A DNA stretch of 7,335 bases from a virus. Lineage: Duplodnaviria; Heunggongvirae; Uroviricota; Caudoviricetes. The stretch lies in the IMG/VR virus record IMGVR_UViG_2713896785_000009. One strand, 5' to 3'. The position numbers were made by a program, and so were the translations under genes. The notes below the pieces were generated by a model. The model had not been told where the DNA came from. It did no database searches and saw only the letters and a program-made list of their open reading frames with translations. Every line of letters begins with the position of its first letter. Position 1 is the stretch's first letter. Positions 1-7,335 of this stretch are shown here, piece after piece.

Positions 1-30
1 AGCATCGAACAGGTTATCGAAATCAGCCAC
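1..30 (-). CDS. FII: Head-tail joining / head completion protein FII, 5' fragment (first 10 codons; gene continues beyond window start)
   Basis: Minus-strand reading from 30 downward gives GTG GCT GAT TTC GAT AAC CTG TTC GAT GCT = (M)ADFDNLFDA, matching my recollection of the lambda gpFII N-terminus. GGGAGG Shine-Dalgarno at 35..40 (minus strand), 4 nt upstream of the GTG. Sits immediately downstream of the FI stop, as in lambda. Too short for the ORF track to list. Confidence 0.7.
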   Translation of the reverse strand, partial: MADFDNLFDA

Positions 31-41
31 AGCGCCTCCCG

Positions 42-437
42 TTATTGCATTCTGGCCAGGCCGCGCTCTGTCATTTCAGCTGCCACACCGGCAGAGACAC
101 GGAACGCCGTTCCCGGCAGCACAAATACCACAGCCTCATCCCGCGTGGCGTGAAGTGCATCAGTATGCAGCGTCACCAGTGCCACAACCGTGACCAGATC
201 AGCCGTATCAGTCACGGTATCCGGCTGCGCTGATACAACCTCATTTTCATGTCCGGTCAGCACATTTTCCGGGCTGAGAGGGGTATCCTGACCGGCAGTG
301 TCGCCCGTGTCATCAAGCTCTTCTTCCAGCTCTGCCACACGGAGCGCCAGTTCTTCTTTCGTCCCCGTCAGGCTGACATCACGGTTCAGTTGCTCACCCA
401 GCGACCGGAGACGGGCAATCAGTTCATCTTTCGTCAT
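42..437 (-). CDS. FI: DNA-packaging / head assembly protein FI
   Basis: Track ORF 42..476 (-). From the internal Met onward (MTKDELIARLRSLGEQLNRDVSLTGTKEELALRVAEL...AEMTERGLARMQ) the protein is colinear with, and very similar to, lambda gpFI (132 aa) as I recall it. I place the start at the ATG at 435..437 rather than 476 because GGAGGAG (441..447, minus strand) lies 5 nt upstream and the 13 extra N-terminal codons have no lambda counterpart. Stop TAA at 42..44. Confidence 0.9.
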   Translation of the reverse strand: MTKDELIARLRSLGEQLNRDVSLTGTKEELALRVAELEEELDDTGDTAGQDTPLSPENVLTGHENEVVSAQPDTVTDTADLVTVVALVTLHTDALHATRDEAVVFVLPGTAFRVSAGVAAEMTERGLARMQ

Positions 438-478
438 GGACTCCTCCACAGAGAGAAAATGGCCCCTAAGGGCCATGA

Positions 479-1507
479 TTACGCCAGTTGAACGGACACG
501 AACTCATCAGGATCAGCCAGCACCATCAGCGGTGCGGACTGCGTCATGGTAAATTCACGGGCCGGATCGCCCACGGTCAGCCAGTGTTTCGGGTAACGGG
601 AAGAAGCCACCACACCTTCGGACAACGCCTGCGCATCCTGAATGGCACCGTAACAACGGATCCCATCTGCAGCCGTATTTCCCAGGACCAGCGTGCCCTC
701 CGGCAGATAACGTTTTTCGGTACCGTCCTCTGCCACATAAGACGTTTTCGCCACCACAATGGCCAGATCGCCGTAATACCCTTTGAAAGACACCACCGCC
801 CCCAGGTCTTTCACTGCCGTTTCGAGTTGTGAATTTGAGCCGCGACGGGTATCCAGTTTTTCGCGGAACAGCTTAAAACCATTCAGCAGACGCCAGACAG
901 TACCGTCCATAATGGCAATATTCACAAGACCGCTGGCCTGATCGCAGTAGAGGTCAATATCATGCGTCGGATCAAACGTATCACGGTCCTGCTCAGACCA
1001 TTTTTTACCGTCGGCCTGCTCAATGTTATTTCCTTCAGAGCGTCCAAAATCCACCTCGACAGTATCAAACTGATCCCCTTCCATGGTGTATTTGCCATAC
1101 AGCACGGCATTCACCGCCTGCATTTCTTCCACCTGGACAATGGCATGCTCTTCCTGTTTGAGGTTATCGGTGATGATACGCAGACGACGGTAGGCCGGGT
1201 CGTTCAGTTGAGCCGGATCTTCACCGGGAAGACGCTCAACCGCCTGCTGGTAATTAAATTCGTGTTTCGGCTTGACGTAGCCCGGACGTAACACGCGGGT
1301 TTCACCACCGCGATGACGCAGCACTTTTCCTTCAACAACCGGGGAGACATAGGCCGCCACCGGCGTTTTTCCGGTAATTTTGTCCAGCATCACCTCTTCG
1401 GTATGGAAATTCACCGTACGGCGGAAAAACAGCTCCAGAAACAGCGCACGAAATTTCACTTTTTGTTCGGTATAACCGAGTAACTGGCGGGTCGTAAACA
1501 ATCCCAT
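479..1507 (-). CDS. E: Major capsid protein (lambda gpE family, HK97-like fold)
   Basis: 342 aa ORF (lambda gpE is 341 aa). Colinear similarity throughout, e.g. GYVKPKHE, DPAYRR, IAQVEEMQAV-like AIVQVEEMQAV, KEKLDTRRGSNS-LETAVKDLG, and C-terminus GDPAREFTMTQSAPLMVLADPDEFVSVQLA nearly identical to lambda. AAGGA Shine-Dalgarno at 1516..1520 (minus strand), 8 nt upstream of the ATG. Confidence 0.95.
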   Translation of the reverse strand: MGLFTTRQLLGYTEQKVKFRALFLELFFRRTVNFHTEEVMLDKITGKTPVAAYVSPVVEGKVLRHRGGETRVLRPGYVKPKHEFNYQQAVERLPGEDPAQLNDPAYRRLRIITDNLKQEEHAIVQVEEMQAVNAVLYGKYTMEGDQFDTVEVDFGRSEGNNIEQADGKKWSEQDRDTFDPTHDIDLYCDQASGLVNIAIMDGTVWRLLNGFKLFREKLDTRRGSNSQLETAVKDLGAVVSFKGYYGDLAIVVAKTSYVAEDGTEKRYLPEGTLVLGNTAADGIRCYGAIQDAQALSEGVVASSRYPKHWLTVGDPAREFTMTQSAPLMVLADPDEFVSVQLA

Positions 1508-1535
1508 AAATCAGTTCCTTTCATTCAGAAATCAG

Positions 1536-1557
1536 TCAGGCCACCGCGGTGGCCTGA
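1536..1557. repeat. Perfect 22-bp palindrome TCAGGCCACCGCGGTGGCCTGA in the D-E intergenic spacer (potential RNA hairpin or protein-binding site)
   Basis: Read directly: 1536..1557 equals its own reverse complement. GC-rich arms with a central CCGCGG. Lies between the D stop (1565..1567) and the E start (1505..1507). On the minus-strand mRNA it is followed by CUGAUUUCUGA, which is not a clean U-tract. Confidence 0.6.
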
Positions 1558-1564
1558 TAACGTG

Positions 1565-1912
1565 TTACGGCAGCGCCGCGTGACTCAGGGCACTGCCGGC
1601 AAAGGCATTTGCCTTTTTGTGTTCATCCACACTGTCAGGCCAGCGGATTGCCTCCGTCGCAAAGGTCCCCGACTTGTAATACGTCAGTACCGTCTCTGTG
1701 CCTTCAAGCGGCAGTACCAGTATGCCAACCGCACTACCGGCTTTCTGTCCGTCCCAGACCACCAGTTTCCCGGTAGCTTCATCCAGCATCAGGGGCGTCA
1801 GTGCCGGTGTTGCCGAGGAAATCCCGCTGCTGCCTGTGGCGGTATGAGCCGGATCATTACCGGCAAAAATACGTACTTCCGCACGCTGTTCAGTGATGGT
1901 TTTCGTTACCAT
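1565..1912 (-). CDS. D: Head decoration protein (lambda gpD family)
   Basis: 115 aa ORF (lambda gpD is 110 aa). Conserved blocks DPAHTAT, TPLMLD, KLVVWDG, AVGIL, YYKSGTF-like (lambda FYKSGTF), AFAG. AGGAGG Shine-Dalgarno at 1923..1928 (minus strand), 10 nt upstream of ATG at 1910..1912. Confidence 0.9.
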   Translation of the reverse strand: MVTKTITEQRAEVRIFAGNDPAHTATGSSGISSATPALTPLMLDEATGKLVVWDGQKAGSAVGILVLPLEGTETVLTYYKSGTFATEAIRWPDSVDEHKKANAFAGSALSHAALP

Positions 1913-1948
1913 ATTGTAAAAACCTCCTGTTGATGGTCAGCACTGACT

Positions 1949-2764
1949 TCATGGCATGGCCATGAGCATTTTCACGTCCGCATCACCGTCTGCTGACGTC
2001 TGTGGCACGCCACCCTGTACCGCTGCCGGTGAATGGTTCGCCATGATGCGTTCAAACAGGGCGGTTGTGGATGCAGAGACCGGTTCTGCCTTACCTGATC
2101 CCGCAGCCAGCACAGCCCGGGCGCTCTCCACAGTCATTCCCGGGCAGGCAGCCAGCTGTTCAGCCTGCGCCTCAGCCCCTTTTGCCTCATCCAGTGCCAT
2201 GATCTGATCACGGAGTGAGGGTCCGGCATCCGCCTGCGGTGAAGCAGCCAGGATCGGGCGGGCTTTTTCCACCGTCATCTCCGGCATCGCCGCCAGCGTT
2301 GCCGCCAGTTGTTCACGACCGTTCGCTTCTTCACACGCCATAATGCGATCGGCTTCACTCTGCGTGGATGCCACCGGCTGCTGCGGTGCCGCCGCGGCCA
2401 GAATCGCCCGGGCCTGTTCAACGCTCATGCCCTGTTGTCCTGCCAGCATCGTGGCAAGCTGTTCACGTCCTTTCGCTTCCTGGCATGTCAGGATCCCCAT
2501 CACTCGCTGGTTCTCCTGCGCGGCGGCTTCCGTTGCAGTTAATTGCGGCATAGTGCCTCCTCTGACATTACTGTTCAGCGCCGTGGCCATCACACTGATG
2601 GCATCCGACGCATTGACTAATTCATCCGCCAGCCCGGCATCAATGCCGGACTGACCTTCAAAAACGGCGGCCTCTGTTCCCGTGACGGCATCAACAGACA
2701 GACCGGTAAACATGGCCACTTTTTCGGCAAACATCCGGCGCGCCGCATCAATGCGCTGCTGCAT
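1949..2764 (-). CDS. Nu3: Possible nested in-frame scaffolding protein (Nu3-like), translated from an internal start within gene C
   Basis: Inference by analogy: in lambda the Nu3 scaffold is made from an internal in-frame start in C and shares its stop. Here in-frame Met codons occur at residue 231 (ATG 2762..2764) and residue 241 (2732..2734), within a few residues of where the lambda Nu3 start aligns (our Ile235). The ribosome-binding context before 2764 is weak (AGAGG about 11 nt upstream), so the exact start is uncertain. Confidence 0.3.
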   Translation of the reverse strand: MQQRIDAARRMFAEKVAMFTGLSVDAVTGTEAAVFEGQSGIDAGLADELVNASDAISVMATALNSNVRGGTMPQLTATEAAAQENQRVMGILTCQEAKGREQLATMLAGQQGMSVEQARAILAAAAPQQPVASTQSEADRIMACEEANGREQLAATLAAMPEMTVEKARPILAASPQADAGPSLRDQIMALDEAKGAEAQAEQLAACPGMTVESARAVLAAGSGKAEPVSASTTALFERIMANHSPAAVQGGVPQTSADGDADVKMLMAMP

Positions 2765-3454
2765 GTCCTGGCGAACCTCTGCCGGTAAGGCTTCAAACTG
2801 ATTGCCATCCACCTTGTGCGCCCCTGAGTAAATCAGCGTGATATCCACACCGGCCTGCGCCAGATGACCGGCATAGCTGACATGGCTCATCATCACGCCA
2901 ATGGAGCCGATACGGGATGTCTGGGTAACCAGCCGTCGGGAGCAGGCCGACGCCAGCAGCATGGCTGCAGAACAGGCCGTGTCATTGCACAGTGCCCAGA
3001 CCGGCTTCTGCTGACGGAGGCGGTAAATCATGTCAGCGCAGTCAAACGCGCCGGCGGCCTGCCCGCCCGGACTGTCAATGTCCAGCAGTACGCCCCGCAC
3101 CTGGCTATCCGCCATTGCCTGCTGAAGACAGGCGACAATGCCGTCATAGCCTGTCATTCCGGAAAATGGCCGCATACCCCCCAGCCGGTGCACCAGCGTG
3201 CCGGTCACCGGCAGTACAGCAATACCGTTCACCACCCGGTAAACACGGGCCGGTCGTTTACCTCCGGCCATGTACTCGTCCGTTTCAGCCAGCATTCCGG
3301 GAGCATCAAGCTGTACCTGCTGCTGTGGTACCGAAAGACTTGCTGCCCCCATCTCGCGCCCGAGCGCGCAAAAGAAAACCCGCGCATAGGCGGGCTCCAG
3401 AAGCAGCGGTTCATTGAATGCCGCGGCAATAATGTGTGAAAGATTACGTCTCAC
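1949..3454 (-). CDS. C: Prohead protease (lambda gpC family; ClpP/SppA-like serine peptidase domain fused to C-terminal scaffold-like region)
   Basis: 501 aa ORF versus about 439 aa for lambda gpC. N-terminal two-thirds strongly colinear with lambda gpC (AFNEPLLLEPAYARVFFCAL, NGIAVLPVTGTLV, SGMTGYDGI, GGQAAGAFDCAD, KPVWAL-ND, SRRLVTQT-R-GSIGVMM, GVDITLIYSG-HKVDGN, TGLSV, TEAAV, AIDAGLADELVN). The C-terminal third carries the repeat expansion listed separately. Start overlaps the B stop by 11 nt. Confidence 0.93.
   Translation of the reverse strand: MRRNLSHIIAAAFNEPLLLEPAYARVFFCALGREMGAASLSVPQQQVQLDAPGMLAETDEYMAGGKRPARVYRVVNGIAVLPVTGTLVHRLGGMRPFSGMTGYDGIVACLQQAMADSQVRGVLLDIDSPGGQAAGAFDCADMIYRLRQQKPVWALCNDTACSAAMLLASACSRRLVTQTSRIGSIGVMMSHVSYAGHLAQAGVDITLIYSGAHKVDGNQFEALPAEVRQDMQQRIDAARRMFAEKVAMFTGLSVDAVTGTEAAVFEGQSGIDAGLADELVNASDAISVMATALNSNVRGGTMPQLTATEAAAQENQRVMGILTCQEAKGREQLATMLAGQQGMSVEQARAILAAAAPQQPVASTQSEADRIMACEEANGREQLAATLAAMPEMTVEKARPILAASPQADAGPSLRDQIMALDEAKGAEAQAEQLAACPGMTVESARAVLAAGSGKAEPVSASTTALFERIMANHSPAAVQGGVPQTSADGDADVKMLMAMP
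2096..2512 (-). repeat. In-frame tandem triplication (~150-bp unit, about 47-53 aa) within the scaffold-like C-terminal region of gene C
   Basis: Protein repeats: RVMGILTCQEAKGREQLATMLAGQQGMSVEQARAILAAAAPQ (res ~317-358), RIMACEEANGREQLAATLAAMPEMTVEKARPILAASPQ (~370-407), QIMALDEAKGAEAQAEQLAACPGMTVESARAVLAAGS (~417-453), with a possible degenerate fourth start (ERIMANHS, ~468-475). At DNA level the motif gccag(c/t)tgttca(c)g recurs at 2151, 2304 and 2454 and gttcacg at 2311 and 2461, an exact 150-nt spacing for the latter. My recollection of lambda gpC/Nu3 has a single copy (RIMGILNCEEAHGREEQARVLAETPGMTVKTARRILAAAPQ). Confidence 0.8.
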
Positions 3455-5036
3455 GGGGTGTTGTCTCCTCTTCCGGCCTGCGACTCTCCGCTATCTGCTG
3501 CTGATACGCCTGCGCTATCCACACCGGACGTGAGAGTCCGGCTTTTTGCCGCTCTGCAGATTCCCTGACCTGCTGGCGGAAAATGTCCTGATAATCCTCG
3601 CCCATCAGCGCCAGCTCTTTCTCATACGTGCTCAGTCCGGCCTCAATGCGCATCACCGATTCCTGAACCTCCTTGAGCCCGTCAATGGCCATTCTTCCGG
3701 CACCAATCCACTCTGCCCGTGACCAGGCTGATCGCGCCTGATAAAAATCAAAACGCGCCCGTGGCGGACGGATAATCCCCCGAAGAAGTGCCTCTTCCAG
3801 CCAGCAGGAAAACATCTGCGTGGCCAGCCGGGCCGCAATAAATTTTCGCCGCCCCATAAAATAGCGCCACGACTCATTGGCAGAGGCCCTGGCACTTGAA
3901 TAACTGACCTTCGAGTAATCACGGGACAACTGTTCGTAGGAAACGCCAAGACCGGCGGCGATATACCGCAGCAGCGCCTGTTCAAGCGCCGAAAATCCAT
4001 TGTCTGAATCCTGCGCAGTCTGTAGTTTCAGATCATCACCAGGGAAAAGGTGCGGAATTTTGACTCCGCCCAGCGTCACGCTATTCGTGTCATACCAGCT
4101 GGAGAACTTCTCCAGAATATTAATAAGCGGATTATCCTTCTGCTCCTGTGGCGCGCCGGCGATATATTCAAAGGCCTTTTCGGTATCAAGTTCACTTTCA
4201 ATCGTCGCTGCATACATGGCTTTCACAATGGCCGACTGAAGCTGTGTTGCCTGCAGGGAATCCAGCATCTTCAGCCGTTCCATGACGCTGTAAAACTGAT
4301 TAGCCCCACGGGTCTGCCCGTCCTCCACCGGCTCGAAAATATGCAGCATGGCCGGACGCCCGGTGGGAAGTTCACGCGGGATCCGTTCCCATCGTCCACT
4401 CCCGGAGAACGGAAAATCATCCTCACAGATATGGTACGCAACGGCACGGCCATATCGATCGACCTCCACCCCGGCCCGCAGAAAACGGTTCCCCATACCG
4501 TGTCCTGGCGTGTCCACCCGTTTCGGACTCACGGCTTTAAAACGCGTACGGAATAACTGCGTGGTTTCCGTATCCCAGACCGGCTGCACAAAGATTTCGC
4601 CGTTAAACGCATGAACGCCCACACCTTCACGGATAAATTCCGTGAACGTGCGTTTTCCTTCCACGTCGATCTCGCCAGACATCCCTTCGGCGTATTCCGA
4701 CCAGGCCGCCTCCACCTCATCGACAAAGCTTTTTGCTGCGGTCTCCCGCATCCCCAGCCAGCGCCAGTTCGGACGGTAGCTGATAAGAAACATATGCCCG
4801 ACAATGTGATCCTTATGCAGTGCCACCGCATTGGCCGCTATTCCGTTATTGCGCACCAGATCATCTGCCCGGGCATTCCCCAGACGCAACGCGGGCAGCA
4901 GGGCCGCATCGGCACTCTGCGCCGGTGGCAACCACTCCGCCATTTGCCCGCCAAATCCTGCGCCGCCCCCGTTGTAGCTGAGACTCTCACGAAGCGGAAC
5001 GCCGTTCACATCAATCAGGACAGGCGTTCGTTTCAT
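3444..5036 (-). CDS. B: Portal protein (lambda gpB family)
   Basis: 530 aa ORF (lambda gpB is 533 aa). Extensive colinear similarity, e.g. GNARADDLVRNNG, FEPVEDGQTRGAN-FYSVME, LQSAIVKAMYAATIESELDT, LLRYIAAGLGVSYEQLSR, SYS-ARASANESW-YFMGRRKF, WIG-GRMAIDGLKEVQE-VM-IEAGLSTYEKE. Start ATG 5034..5036 overlaps the W stop in an ATGA arrangement (5033..5036). Confidence 0.95.
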   Translation of the reverse strand: MKRTPVLIDVNGVPLRESLSYNGGGAGFGGQMAEWLPPAQSADAALLPALRLGNARADDLVRNNGIAANAVALHKDHIVGHMFLISYRPNWRWLGMRETAAKSFVDEVEAAWSEYAEGMSGEIDVEGKRTFTEFIREGVGVHAFNGEIFVQPVWDTETTQLFRTRFKAVSPKRVDTPGHGMGNRFLRAGVEVDRYGRAVAYHICEDDFPFSGSGRWERIPRELPTGRPAMLHIFEPVEDGQTRGANQFYSVMERLKMLDSLQATQLQSAIVKAMYAATIESELDTEKAFEYIAGAPQEQKDNPLINILEKFSSWYDTNSVTLGGVKIPHLFPGDDLKLQTAQDSDNGFSALEQALLRYIAAGLGVSYEQLSRDYSKVSYSSARASANESWRYFMGRRKFIAARLATQMFSCWLEEALLRGIIRPPRARFDFYQARSAWSRAEWIGAGRMAIDGLKEVQESVMRIEAGLSTYEKELALMGEDYQDIFRQQVRESAERQKAGLSRPVWIAQAYQQQIAESRRPEEETTPRET

Positions 5037-5239
5037 AACCTCACTCCCAGCGGACGACGGCGACGCCGGGTTGTCCCCAGTACCGACTCCGCATCATTGA
5101 TCGCCCGGTTAAGCTCATCCAGAGAAGCCGCCGTATATTCAATTCTGCGACCATCTTTCTGGACAGACACCACCCGTTTACCGGTTAATAAATCAAGGCG
5201 CGCCTGACGCAGCGCCTGCAGTTCAGCGACTGTAACCAT
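5033..5239 (-). CDS. W: Head-tail joining / head completion protein (lambda gpW family)
   Basis: 68 aa ORF, the same length as lambda gpW. Conserved L-TGKRV--VQKDGRR-E-TA-S core and basic RRRR tail. GGAGG Shine-Dalgarno at 5245..5249 (minus strand), 5 nt upstream of ATG at 5237..5239. Overlaps the 3' end of A by 17 nt. Confidence 0.9.
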   Translation of the reverse strand: MVTVAELQALRQARLDLLTGKRVVSVQKDGRRIEYTAASLDELNRAINDAESVLGTTRRRRRPLGVRL

Positions 5240-7151
5240 TCACTCCTCCGGACAGCTTCGCTGCCAGTTCTTTCAGGGTTGGCCGGGTCGTCTCTTCTTC
5301 CCGGGATTTTGCCAGTACAGCCAGATCAAGCTGCCAGCGTTGCACGGACACACGTAATGCCGCGTAGGCATACACCAGGCAGTCCAGCGCTTCGTTACGC
5401 CGCTTTTTGTTATCCCACAGCAGACGCATCTTTCCTTTTTCCCACTTCTCCACAAGCTCTTCCGCCACCAGTTGCTGCGCCTCTGTCTGCGAAAAAATCT
5501 CCGGATCATCAGGAAAACGGATGGCATACGACGTGGCTTCATCCGCAGGCGTGGGATCGGCTTTCATACGGGCATAGAGAATTTCTTTTGCGGTGTCCGT
5601 CCCCACTTCACACAGATACACGCCCCGCTGATTGCGGGTTTTCGGCATGGTGATCACCGGCTTGCCATAGACAGACGCGCCTTTTACCGGCAGCACCCGG
5701 AAAACACTGTGTTTTTTTGATCTCTGATAAACAATTTCACCATCGATCCCCCCGGTGTCCCAGCAGACACGGGAAATGGTCATTTCGGTGCCATCCGCAT
5801 GGCGATATTTTTTGTTGATCGCAGCATCCACACGTAACAGCGTCTCTTCCTCATCGGGACGCCCCATAATGATGATTTTATCCACCAGAAAGGCTTCCTC
5901 TCCCGGTGCCCATCCCCAGACATACATCTCAAAACGGTTTCGCTGCGAGTCAATGCCCGCCGTCAGATAAACCACCCGGGAAGGCACCGCAGCCGTGTAA
6001 CGCACAACCTTATCCATCAGTACCTGGTGATCGAGTTTTTCGCCCACGGCCTCTTCCCAGGTCTCGCCCAGCGTGGTGTTCACAAAGGTTTTCAGGCCGT
6101 TGGGATCTTTCAGTGCATCCAGCCAGTCATAGACAATCTGTACCCAGGTGGTGAACGGACTGTACGCCGTCCAGATATGGAACGTGATGGAGCGCGGCGG
6201 CGGAATTTCATCACCCCGGGCGCTGAAAAACGTCAGACCGTCACGGGTCCACATGCCCGTGTTTTCACAGATCCACCGCCCGTTGCTCTGGTCCAGTTCA
6301 GACTGATGGATCACGCAGCCATGATGTTCACAGAGGTAGAAAACACTTTCAGGGCTGTCCTTCTCCCATTTAAGCCCAAAAGGCGTGGACTCATCGCCAA
6401 ATTTCAGATACTGCGCCTCCCCACAGTGCGGGCAGGGCACATAAAAACGCATAAAATGCGCCGACTCGTTAGCGGCTTTTTCGATCTGGCAGGTGCCTTT
6501 GATTTTAGGCGTCGAGCCGCGAATGGATTTTGGCCACACCGACCCCTCAATACGCTTATCCCCCAGCAGGGTTGGCGAGCCCTCTTTTTCGACATCCGGC
6601 TCGAACGAGGAAAGTTCGTCATAGCAGACCACGTCCACGGATTTTTCACGGTAGTTTTTGGCGGCAGCGCCGCCCAGGCACCAGAAACCGACGCCCGATG
6701 AAAAGCGTTTCAGCGTGAGAGTATTGTCACGATGTTTACGACCCAGCCATGGGGAAAGGTCTTTCAGGCATGGCACGTTCCGAATCGTCGCCTCCACGTG
6801 AGACTTCATAAAATCTTCAGCGGCAGAATCCGTGGGCTGAAAAAGCAGACTGTTTCGGGATTTATGCTCAATAAAATACCCGACCACCCCCAGCAACATC
6901 TTTGTATAGCCAACACGGGCAGATTTAATCAGGTTAACCGTGCGAACCTGGTCGTTACCCATACAGTTCATAATGGCGATCTGGAATGGCAGCGTTTTCC
7001 ATTCGCCCTCACCGTATGAGGATTCTTTAGGCAGATAATAATTTTGATCAGCCCATTCAACTGCCGTCATTGGTACAACCCTGACCAGAGGCTGCAGCGC
7101 AACCGAAACGGCAGCCATCATATTATTCAGTTGTTGCTCTGATATATTCAT
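5223..7151 (-). CDS. A: Terminase large subunit (lambda gpA family: packaging ATPase plus cos-cleaving endonuclease)
   Basis: Track ORF 5223..7208 (-). I place the start at the internal ATG at 7149..7151 (MNISEQQLNN...) because lambda gpA begins MNISNSQ... and the 19 upstream codons lie inside the Nu1 reading frame; this gives 642 aa versus 641 for lambda. Colinear similarity across the whole length (TAVEWAD-NYYLPKES, VGY-KMLLGV, HVE-TIR, DNTLT-KRF, FWCLGG-AAKNYREKSVDV, SPT-LGDKRIEGSVWPKSIRGSTPK, HFMRF-V-CPHCGE-QYLKFGD, FHIWTAYSPFTTWVQIV, TTLGETWE, TAGIDSQ, WDTGGID, KGASVYGKPV, RRNEALDC). Confidence 0.95.
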   Translation of the reverse strand: MNISEQQLNNMMAAVSVALQPLVRVVPMTAVEWADQNYYLPKESSYGEGEWKTLPFQIAIMNCMGNDQVRTVNLIKSARVGYTKMLLGVVGYFIEHKSRNSLLFQPTDSAAEDFMKSHVEATIRNVPCLKDLSPWLGRKHRDNTLTLKRFSSGVGFWCLGGAAAKNYREKSVDVVCYDELSSFEPDVEKEGSPTLLGDKRIEGSVWPKSIRGSTPKIKGTCQIEKAANESAHFMRFYVPCPHCGEAQYLKFGDESTPFGLKWEKDSPESVFYLCEHHGCVIHQSELDQSNGRWICENTGMWTRDGLTFFSARGDEIPPPRSITFHIWTAYSPFTTWVQIVYDWLDALKDPNGLKTFVNTTLGETWEEAVGEKLDHQVLMDKVVRYTAAVPSRVVYLTAGIDSQRNRFEMYVWGWAPGEEAFLVDKIIIMGRPDEEETLLRVDAAINKKYRHADGTEMTISRVCWDTGGIDGEIVYQRSKKHSVFRVLPVKGASVYGKPVITMPKTRNQRGVYLCEVGTDTAKEILYARMKADPTPADEATSYAIRFPDDPEIFSQTEAQQLVAEELVEKWEKGKMRLLWDNKKRRNEALDCLVYAYAALRVSVQRWQLDLAVLAKSREEETTRPTLKELAAKLSGGVNGYSR

Positions 7152-7335
7152 CGAGTAAATCCGGTAATTTATCCCCTGCCCGCGCACACTGATTTGCCCC
7201 CTTAGCAATAAGGGTTTTCAGATGGTCAAGATGGCGCGGTGTTAAATCAGGAAACTGTCGCTGCATGGATAAAGGGATGGAATCAAGCGTACTGGATAAC
7301 GCCATTGCCAGCTTACTGAGGGCAAAAATACAGAA
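7123..7335 (-). CDS. Nu1: Terminase small subunit (lambda gpNu1 family), C-terminal fragment; 5' end lies beyond the window
   Basis: Minus-strand frame is open from 7335 to the TAA at 7123..7125 (the track lists only the part from the Met at 7305). Translation ...FCIFALSKLAMALSSTLDSIPLSMQRQFPDLTPRHLDHLKTLIAKGANQCARAGDKLPDLLDEYIRATTE aligns with the lambda gpNu1 C-terminus as I recall it (...TAFCTFVLSRIAGEIASILDGLPLSVQRRFPELENRHVDFLKRDIIKAMNKAAALDELIPGLLSEYIEQSG). Its 3' end overlaps the A start by 29 nt, as Nu1 and A overlap in lambda. Confidence 0.8.
   Translation of the reverse strand, partial: FCIFALSKLAMALSSTLDSIPLSMQRQFPDLTPRHLDHLKTLIAKGANQCARAGDKLPDLLDEYIRATTE

What the first reader, a model, noticed from the sequence alone, without database searches (positions are those of the whole stretch)
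1536..1557. Perfect 22-bp GC-rich palindrome between the decoration (D) and major capsid (E) genes
TCAGGCCACCGCGGTGGCCTGA is a perfect inverted repeat filling most of the 57-bp D-E spacer. On the late mRNA it could fold into a stable hairpin of about 8-9 bp just after the D stop and about 30 nt before the E start. It is not followed by a clean U-run, so it looks more like an mRNA stabiliser, processing site or translational modulator than an intrinsic terminator. As double-stranded DNA it could instead be a symmetric protein-binding site.
Basis: seen in the sequence. Interest (0 to 1): 0.4.

Follow-up and report, generated by a model that had tools for sequence, protein, structure and literature searches.

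The report
Terminator-like hairpin between two capsid genes
The palindrome is real and forms a stable RNA hairpin between the head-decoration and major-capsid genes of a phage-21-type prophage; related phages carry an ordinary transcription terminator at the same spot, so it is an expected, largely ordinary feature whose exact role is untested.

Summary
TCAGGCCACCGCGGTGGCCTGA (1536-1557) is a perfect 22-bp palindrome in the 57-nt spacer between shp (lambda D homologue) and gene 7 (lambda E homologue). These belong to a phage-21-type head operon on the minus strand.

- **Structure:** on the late mRNA it folds into a 9-bp stem with a CGCG loop (-16.8 kcal/mol, pairing probability about 0.99). 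It starts 7 nt after the shp stop and ends 28 nt before the gene 7 AUG.
- **Distribution:** it is identical in phage 21 and present in 1909 of 5426 complete E. coli genomes.
- **Comparison with relatives:** 14 of 18 lineages examined carry a GC hairpin of unrelated sequence at the same position. Of the 14 lineages scored that have a hairpin there, 12 look like canonical intrinsic terminators with a U-tract on the sense strand. The N15 record annotates its copy as a putative terminator. The phage-21 version has the strongest stem but a decayed U-tract, and it fails a terminator score.
- **Interpretation:** it is most likely a terminator-class hairpin on the late mRNA, read through by Q-modified polymerase. 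It would act as a 3'-exonuclease barrier and at most a weak terminator.
- **Not supported:** a DNA protein-binding site, control of gene 7 translation, an RNase III site, or a REP element.

This is a new member of a known kind, of low interest.

The parts
1536..1557 (-). Perfect 22-bp palindrome. On the late mRNA it forms a 9-bp stem (UCAGGCCAC/GUGGCCUGA) with a CGCG tetraloop, dG -16.8 kcal/mol.
1531..1561 (-). Possible extended hairpin (GUUA...C-bulge...UGAU adds 4 weak pairs), dG -17.8 kcal/mol.
1526..1535 (-). Sequence 3' of the stem, CUGAUUUCUG: an interrupted U-tract (5 U in 10; T-score 1.11, against 3.2-5.1 in the lineages that score as terminators).
1565..1912 (-). shp / head decoration gene (lambda D homologue). 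Its stop codon (1567-1565) lies 7 nt upstream of the hairpin.
1515..1521 (-). Shine-Dalgarno region AAAGGAA of the major capsid gene. It lies in the 3' part of the spacer, which is the most conserved part (heterozygosity 0.009).
479..1507 (-). Major capsid protein gene (phage 21 gene 7, lambda E homologue).
459..476 (-). Second GC hairpin AUGGCCCUUAGGGGCCAU followed by UUUCUCUCUG, directly after the capsid gene stop. It matches the lambda E-FI hairpin except for the loop (UUCG to UUAG). The capsid gene is therefore bracketed by hairpins.

Best explanation
The palindrome encodes a terminator-class RNA hairpin at the 3' end of the decoration-protein cistron of a phage-21-type late operon. It is the positional counterpart of the canonical intrinsic terminator that lambda, N15, phi80, Gifsy-1 and many other lambda-like head modules carry between their decoration and major-capsid genes.

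In the phage-21 lineage the stem is unusually strong but the U-tract is degenerate, so it probably terminates RNA polymerase weakly or not at all. During lytic growth the Q21-modified polymerase coming from pR' reads through it. The hairpin then forms on the finished late mRNA and acts as a barrier to 3'-to-5' exonucleases. This would stabilise the upstream shp-containing message after downstream cleavage or occasional termination. It may also still stop a fraction of unmodified polymerase.

**Shown here:** the structure, its position, its orientation, conservation of a hairpin at this position in relatives, and the loss of the U-tract.
**Inferred:** read-through by Q, the exonuclease-barrier role, and weak termination.
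For: - **Stable fold:** the 9-bp hairpin forms with probability about 0.99 in every context tried.
- **Same position in relatives:** a GC hairpin of different sequence occupies this spacer in 14 lineages. These are the phage-21 type, Gifsy-1, L221, L223, L243, Trabulsiella L006, Serratia L009, L220, lambda, N15/phi80, L010, L237, L238 and Vibrio K251.
- **Terminator scores:** of the 14 lineages scored that have a hairpin there, 12 pass a d'Aubenton-Carafa-type terminator score. The phage-21 type scores d = -23.
- **Prior annotation:** the N15 record marks the equivalent stem-loop as 'putative rho-indep. transcription terminator'.
- **Strand:** the hairpins are more stable on the sense strand in 12 of 14 lineages (one-sided sign test about 0.0065, my calculation).
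- **Variation within the phage-21 type:** stem heterozygosity is 0.034, against 0.07-0.08 at third codon positions and 0.184 in the loop. 93% of loci keep dG at or below -12 kcal/mol.
- **A second hairpin** follows the capsid gene in the window and in nearly every relative.
- **Published mechanism:** Q proteins narrow the RNA exit channel and prevent terminator hairpins from forming at the polymerase (abstract of PMC9388147, listed). Intra-late-operon terminators of lambdoid phages are a recognised feature of unknown role (PMC8022706).
Against: - There are no transcript 3'-end or half-life data for this site. No paper in the library addresses it.
- No compensatory double substitution was seen in the stem among about 180 phage-21-type loci. 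The single-base stem variants do not favour the sense strand: C6 to T gives a wobble pair on the sense strand, while G16A, G17A and T15C would give wobble pairs only on the antisense strand.
- About 7% of loci carry weakened stems (-5.9 to -9.6 kcal/mol), and three relatives have no hairpin at all in this spacer (Providencia L007/L008, Aeromonas PhAER-5, YSD1). The element is therefore dispensable in some backgrounds.
- Most relatives retain a U-tract, which argues that termination itself, not only hairpin stability, is what selection usually maintains there.
- The hairpin base lies only 7 nt from the stop codon, so a terminating ribosome would transiently open it.
Confidence: 0.6

Rival explanations
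1. It is still an effective intrinsic terminator that insulates the highly translated capsid gene. On this view it stops polymerase that has not been modified by Q (leaky or spurious transcription in the lysogen), and that is its selected function.
For: Most relatives keep a full U-tract at this position. The simple terminator scan lists the site, with 5 T in an 8-nt window. With the extended stem the tail begins UU and the score rises to d about -9. The phage L paper proposes exactly this role for intra-operon terminators (PMC8022706).
Against: T-score is 1.11 and d is -23 for the 9-bp stem, against positive d in the 12 lineages that pass. The curated phage 21 annotation marks late-operon terminators at I/J and after J but not here. 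The hairpin starts 7 nt after a stop codon, so a terminating ribosome would interfere with it.
Confidence: 0.17
2. It is a decaying relic of a former terminator with no present function, kept only because too little time has passed for it to erode.
For: The U-tract is already degenerate. The palindrome holds more variable sites than the rest of the spacer. Weakened variants and an IS200 insertion next to it exist in natural prophages. Some relatives lack any hairpin.
Against: Stem diversity is about half that of third codon positions, while loop diversity is more than twice as high. 93% of loci keep a strong fold. It is the strongest of all hairpins at this position. A decaying element would not be expected to have the longest perfect stem in the phage genome.
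Confidence: 0.12
3. It acts as double-stranded DNA, as a symmetric protein-binding site, a cruciform, or a recombination or transposition target.
For: It is perfectly two-fold symmetric. The common CGCG-to-CATG variant changes both central bases and keeps the palindrome perfect. IS200C is inserted 6-7 nt from it in 9 E. coli genomes.
Against: There is no second copy in the window or in the phage 21 genome. The sequence is not conserved in relatives, which conserve only pairing plus a sense-strand U-tract. The frequent G14-to-T variant breaks the symmetry. The two central bases lie in the RNA loop, where change is unconstrained anyway. The 9 genomes with the IS200 insertion may descend from one event.
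Confidence: 0.05
4. It modulates translation of the capsid gene, either by uncoupling it from shp translation or by shaping the structure around the ribosome-binding site.
For: It lies 28 nt upstream of the AUG. The 3' part of the spacer, which includes the Shine-Dalgarno sequence, is very conserved.
Against: The predicted unpaired probability of the Shine-Dalgarno sequence and AUG is not consistently changed by destroying or deleting the hairpin. Values are 0.40-0.59 for wild type and 0.39-0.57 for the mutants, with the direction depending on context. Hairpins in relatives lie 20-35 nt from the AUG with unrelated sequences.
Confidence: 0.05

Closest known systems
The D-E intercistronic intrinsic terminator of lambda, and the annotated stem-loops flanking gene 8 of phage N15
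   Same: It sits in the same place (between the decoration and major capsid genes), on the same strand, and at a similar distance from the capsid start codon (20-33 nt). It has a GC-rich stem and a 3-6 nt loop, and lies within a Q-antiterminated late operon.
   Different: Lambda, N15 and phi80 have 5-bp GC cores extended by A-U pairs and followed by 7 U. The phage-21-type element has a 9-bp perfect stem, an interrupted U-tract (CUGAUUUCUG), and lies only 7 nt (not 21-33 nt) from the stop codon. There is no sequence homology beyond a generic GGCC...GGCC.
Intra-late-operon terminators of P22-like and other lambdoid phages, as discussed for phage L
   Same: These are terminator-like hairpins inside a single-promoter, antiterminated late operon next to the procapsid gene module. 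Their role is acknowledged as unknown, with partial termination or blocking of unmodified polymerase as suggestions (PMC8022706).
   Different: They belong to a different phage head-gene family. Those were predicted as full terminators, whereas this one fails the U-tract criterion.
Intercistronic 3'-exonuclease-barrier hairpins in bacterial operons (for example REP elements between malE and malF; from general knowledge, not tested here)
   Same: It is a stable GC hairpin without a U-tract in an untranslated spacer after a highly expressed cistron.
   Different: It is not a dispersed repeat. It has a single copy per phage genome and no Rfam match. Its stabilising activity is not demonstrated.

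Membership tests
Canonical intrinsic (Rho-independent) terminator | GC-rich stem of about 5-14 bp with a 3-8 nt loop, on the transcribed strand | tested here: met
   9-bp stem (6 G-C pairs) with a 4-nt loop on the late mRNA strand. The typical E. coli stem is 7-8 bp with a 3-4 nt loop (PMC10325885).
Canonical intrinsic (Rho-independent) terminator | Uninterrupted U-rich tract immediately 3' of the stem | tested here: not met
   The tail is CUGAUUUCUG. T-score is 1.11, against 3.2-5.1 in the 12 lineages that pass, and the approximate d-score is -23 against positive values in those 12. The site passes only the loose scan criterion of 5 T in 8 nt. It is not marked as a terminator in the curated phage 21 record.
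Canonical intrinsic (Rho-independent) terminator | Measured termination of RNA polymerase at the site | not testable with these tools
   This needs in vitro transcription or Term-seq. No published data were found.
Positionally conserved decoration/capsid intercistronic hairpin of lambda-like head modules | Hairpin in the spacer between the decoration-gene stop and the capsid-gene ribosome-binding site, more stable on the sense strand | tested here: met
   Present in 14 of 18 lineages examined. The sense strand is favoured in 12 of 14. The window copy is strand-symmetric because it is a perfect palindrome.
mRNA 3'-end stabiliser (exonuclease-barrier hairpin) | Stable hairpin in untranslated RNA downstream of a cistron | tested here: met
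   dG is -16.8 kcal/mol and pairing probability about 0.99. However, the hairpin base is only 7 nt from the stop codon, within reach of a terminating ribosome.
mRNA 3'-end stabiliser (exonuclease-barrier hairpin) | Accumulation of RNA 3' ends at the hairpin, and a longer half-life of the upstream message that depends on the stem | not testable with these tools
   No expression data are available here.
REP/BIME-type dispersed extragenic palindromes | Many dispersed copies with a family consensus | tested here: not met
   There is no Rfam hit at the site and a single copy in the phage 21 genome. All listed E. coli matches lie under the decoration and capsid genes.
RNase III processing site | About two helical turns (roughly 20 bp) of double-stranded RNA (criterion from general knowledge) | tested here: not met
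   Only 9 perfect pairs, or 13 with the weak extension.
Symmetric operator or protein-binding palindrome | Sequence-conserved two-fold symmetric site, usually repeated or near a promoter | tested here: not met
   There is no other copy. The sequence is not conserved across relatives. Symmetry is broken in a common variant. The one promoter-like match in the window (1913-1940, upstream of shp) is not at the palindrome.

The most novel reading that the evidence does not exclude
The two hairpins that bracket the major capsid gene in lambda-like head modules could form a conserved expression cassette. They would carve out discrete, long-lived decoration and capsid mRNAs, or keep the capsid gene silent in lysogens (for example to avoid triggering capsid-sensing host defences). 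Within that picture, the phage-21-type palindrome, lacking a U-tract, would be a functionally shifted version: a pure RNA-stability or pause element, or a hairpin target for IS200-type single-strand transposases.
Probability: 0.1. Interest if true: 0.5.

Novelty: new member of a known kind. Interest (0 to 1): 0.2.

Why it matters
It matters little on its own. The element explains why there is a 57-nt spacer in an otherwise tightly packed head operon, and it should be annotated as a stem-loop in phage-21-type prophages, which occur in about a third of complete E. coli genomes.

The wider pattern is more interesting. Terminator-like hairpins of rapidly changing sequence are kept on both sides of the major capsid gene inside an antiterminated operon, and their role is admitted to be unknown in the literature (PMC8022706). 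The phage-21 version, with a strong stem and no U-tract, is a natural separation-of-function variant. It could be used to ask whether the hairpin alone (RNA stability) or termination is what matters.

Tried and rejected
- **Cross-lineage alignment for compensatory changes.** MAFFT could not place the stems in register because the hairpins share no sequence homology, so no covariation count was attempted. Each hairpin was scored on its own instead.
- **An apparent alternative hairpin linked to a different D gene (viral contigs L048/L226).** This turned out to be the right end of an IS200C element inserted next to the palindrome. That reading was withdrawn.
- **Rfam at a permissive threshold.** This gave nothing at the site. 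The only hit was a sub-threshold DicF match at 6646-6675, E = 0.83.
- **The search for related loci with an alignment.** This returned only near-identical phage-21-type loci. Diversity had to be obtained from single-protein scans of divergent capsid proteins and from tblastn of the phage collection.
- **Nine literature searches.** None found transcript-end, termination or stability data for this spacer in phage 21 or lambda. The 1988 PNAS paper on lambda late-gene translation is not held.
- **A satellite att site in late genes.** Considered and rejected, because that integration site lies inside the capsid gene, not in this spacer.
- **Wobble-pair analysis of phage-21-type variants.** This did not discriminate between strands.

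Full report
**What the window is**

All long ORFs lie on the minus strand and form a lambda-like head operon:
- large terminase, 5223-7208
- W-like protein, 5033-5239
- portal, 3444-5036
- protease/scaffold, 1949-3454
- decoration protein, 1565-1912
- major capsid protein, 479-1507
- FI, up to 476

Positions 497-7335 of the window are 95-96% identical to phage 21 and its relatives. In those records the two genes flanking the finding are shp (the lambda D homologue) and gene 7 (the lambda E homologue). The first 497 bases resemble lambda-type FI regions instead, so the window is a mosaic. The whole window is 100% identical to a prophage of E. coli 2013C-3264.

**The observation**

Positions 1536-1557 read TCAGGCCACCGCGGTGGCCTGA, a perfect palindrome. 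It lies in the 57-nt spacer 1508-1564. It starts 7 nt after the shp stop and ends 28 nt before the gene 7 ATG.

- On the minus-strand RNA it folds into a 9-bp stem with a CGCG loop, with dG -16.8 kcal/mol.
- Four weak flanking pairs can extend it to -17.8 kcal/mol.
- The stem pairs form with probability about 0.99 in three sequence contexts.
- The tail is CUGAUUUCUG.
- A perfect stem this long appears somewhere in 5 of 300 dinucleotide shuffles of the window. It is also the longest perfect stem in the 42.9-kb phage 21 genome.
- It sits in one of the very few non-coding spacers, so chance is an unlikely explanation.

**Distribution and micro-variation**

The 22-mer is identical in both phage 21 records, and neither annotates it. 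The surrounding 261 bases occur in 1909 of 5426 complete E. coli genomes. In every listed case they lie under 'head decoration protein | major capsid protein'.

Among about 180 phage-21-type loci from viral contigs and genomes, the variants of the 22-mer are:

| Variant | Loci | Effect | dG (kcal/mol) |
|---|---|---|---|
| Reference | 93 | none | -16.8 |
| G14 to T | 34 | opens the innermost pair | -13.0 |
| CGCG to CATG | 29 | loop change only | -15.8 |
| Rarer single changes and one deletion | few each | weaken the stem | -5.9 to -12.1 |

In all, 93% of loci keep dG at or below -12 kcal/mol.

Heterozygosity across 63 haplotypes, by site class:

| Site class | Heterozygosity |
|---|---|
| Stem | 0.034 |
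| Loop | 0.184 |
| 3' part of the spacer (includes the Shine-Dalgarno sequence) | 0.009 |
| Third codon positions of the flanking genes | 0.07-0.08 |

A constrained stem with a free loop is what a hairpin predicts, but the site numbers are small. No compensatory double change was seen. The single-base stem variants do not favour one strand.

**Relatives outside the phage-21 type**

This is the informative comparison. I collected decoration/capsid spacers from genomes, viral contigs, annotated phages and E. coli prophages.

- **Hairpins present.** A GC hairpin of unrelated sequence sits in the same spacer in lambda (AAAGGCCGCcuguGCGGCUUUUUUU), N15 and phi80, Gifsy-1, Serratia L009, L220, L221, L223, L243, the L010/L237/L238 group, Trabulsiella L006 and Vibrio phage K251.
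- **No hairpin or weak structure.** Providencia L007/L008, Aeromonas PhAER-5 and the chi-like phage YSD1 have no hairpin there. Burkholderia AH2 has only a weak structure.
- **Terminator scores.** With an approximate d'Aubenton-Carafa score (modern energies, so rough), 12 of the 14 scored lineages that have a hairpin score as terminators. Their T-scores are 3.2-5.1 and d is above 0. The phage-21 type has the strongest stem but T = 1.11 and d = -23. Trabulsiella also fails.
- **Prior annotation.** The N15 record annotates the equivalent stem-loop, and a second one after the capsid gene, as putative rho-independent terminators.
- **Strand.** The hairpin is more stable on the sense strand than on the antisense strand in 12 of 14 lineages (one-sided sign test about 0.0065, my calculation).
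- **A second hairpin.** Another GC hairpin follows the capsid gene in the window (459-476), in lambda, N15, phi80, Gifsy-1, phage 21, PhAER-5, K251, YSD1 and AH2. The capsid gene is therefore usually bracketed by hairpins.

**Mechanism**

These late operons are transcribed from pR' by polymerase modified by Q. Q forms a nozzle on the RNA exit channel that prevents terminator hairpins from forming at the polymerase (abstract of PMC9388147, listed). The phage 21 record annotates the Q21 binding element and pR'. Read-through of this hairpin during lytic growth is therefore expected; this is an inference.

Once the RNA has left the polymerase, the hairpin will form. The standard role of a stable hairpin without a U-tract at the end of a cistron is to block 3'-to-5' exonucleases. 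This comes from general knowledge and was not tested here. I commit to that role, with weak termination of unmodified polymerase as a secondary activity.

The main rival is that it still works as an insulating terminator. Relatives retain their U-tracts, and the phage L authors suggested this role for intra-operon terminators while stating that the roles 'are not known' (PMC8022706).

Other readings fare as follows:
- **Neutral relic:** not excluded, but it fits poorly with the stem/loop diversity contrast and the exceptional stem strength.
- **Translation control:** not supported. Removing the hairpin in silico does not consistently change the predicted accessibility of the gene 7 Shine-Dalgarno sequence or AUG.
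- **DNA-level protein site:** not supported. There is no second copy, no sequence conservation across lineages, and a common variant breaks the symmetry.
- **RNase III site:** the stem is too short.
- **REP-type element:** it is not dispersed and has no Rfam match.

**Novelty and verdict**

Terminator-like hairpins inside lambdoid late operons are known and are annotated in N15. The phage-21-type palindrome is an unannotated member of that class whose U-tract has decayed. It is real and non-random, probably functional at the RNA level, and ordinary. Direct evidence (3'-end mapping, termination assays, compensatory mutants) is missing and could not be obtained here.

Noticed in passing
L242:1640-2365 (E. 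coli S1-ISR-02-A prophage); also viral contigs L048/L226: An IS200C element (tnpA) is inserted in the decoration/capsid spacer 6-7 nt 3' of the palindrome. The junction is present in 9 of 5426 complete E. coli genomes. Its right-end hairpin CCTCCGGCTATGCCGGAGG first looked like an alternative spacer hairpin.
   Followed up: partly
window 459-476 (minus strand): A GC hairpin AUGGCCCUUAGGGGCCAU plus UUUCUCUCUG lies directly after the capsid gene stop. It matches the lambda E-FI hairpin except for the loop. With the finding, it brackets the capsid gene.
   Followed up: partly
window 435-476 (minus strand): The mechanical FI ORF starts at the ATG at 476-474, which lies inside that hairpin. As in lambda, the real FI start is probably the in-frame ATG at 437-435, preceded by GGAGGAG (447-441).
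   Followed up: no
window 1-497: There is a mosaic joint. Phage-21-type identity begins at about position 497 (the 3' end of the capsid gene). The FI region upstream of it resembles lambda-type phages (ev243, Lambda_2E9) rather than phage 21.
   Followed up: no
window 1598-1613 (plus strand): A terminator-like inverted repeat GGCAAAGGCATTTGCC followed by TTTTTG lies on the antisense strand inside the 3' end of the shp coding sequence.
   Followed up: no
window about 2040-2400: Weak direct repeats spaced 141-156 nt lie inside the scaffold (gene 6 / Nu3-like) coding region. They correspond to the 'Tri boxes, function unknown' annotated in the phage 21 record M81255.
   Followed up: partly
L244 (phage 21) 15651-15670: The annotated I/J terminator of phage 21 (AAACCGCCTCCGGGCGGTTT) has the same hairpin core (CCGCCUCCGGGCGG) as the decoration/capsid spacer hairpin of the L010/L237 lineage.
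   Followed up: no
window 1913-1940 (minus strand): This is the only sigma-70-like promoter match in the window (CTGACC-16-TACAAT, 9 of 12). It lies just upstream of shp, and fewer such matches were found than expected from shuffles.
   Followed up: no
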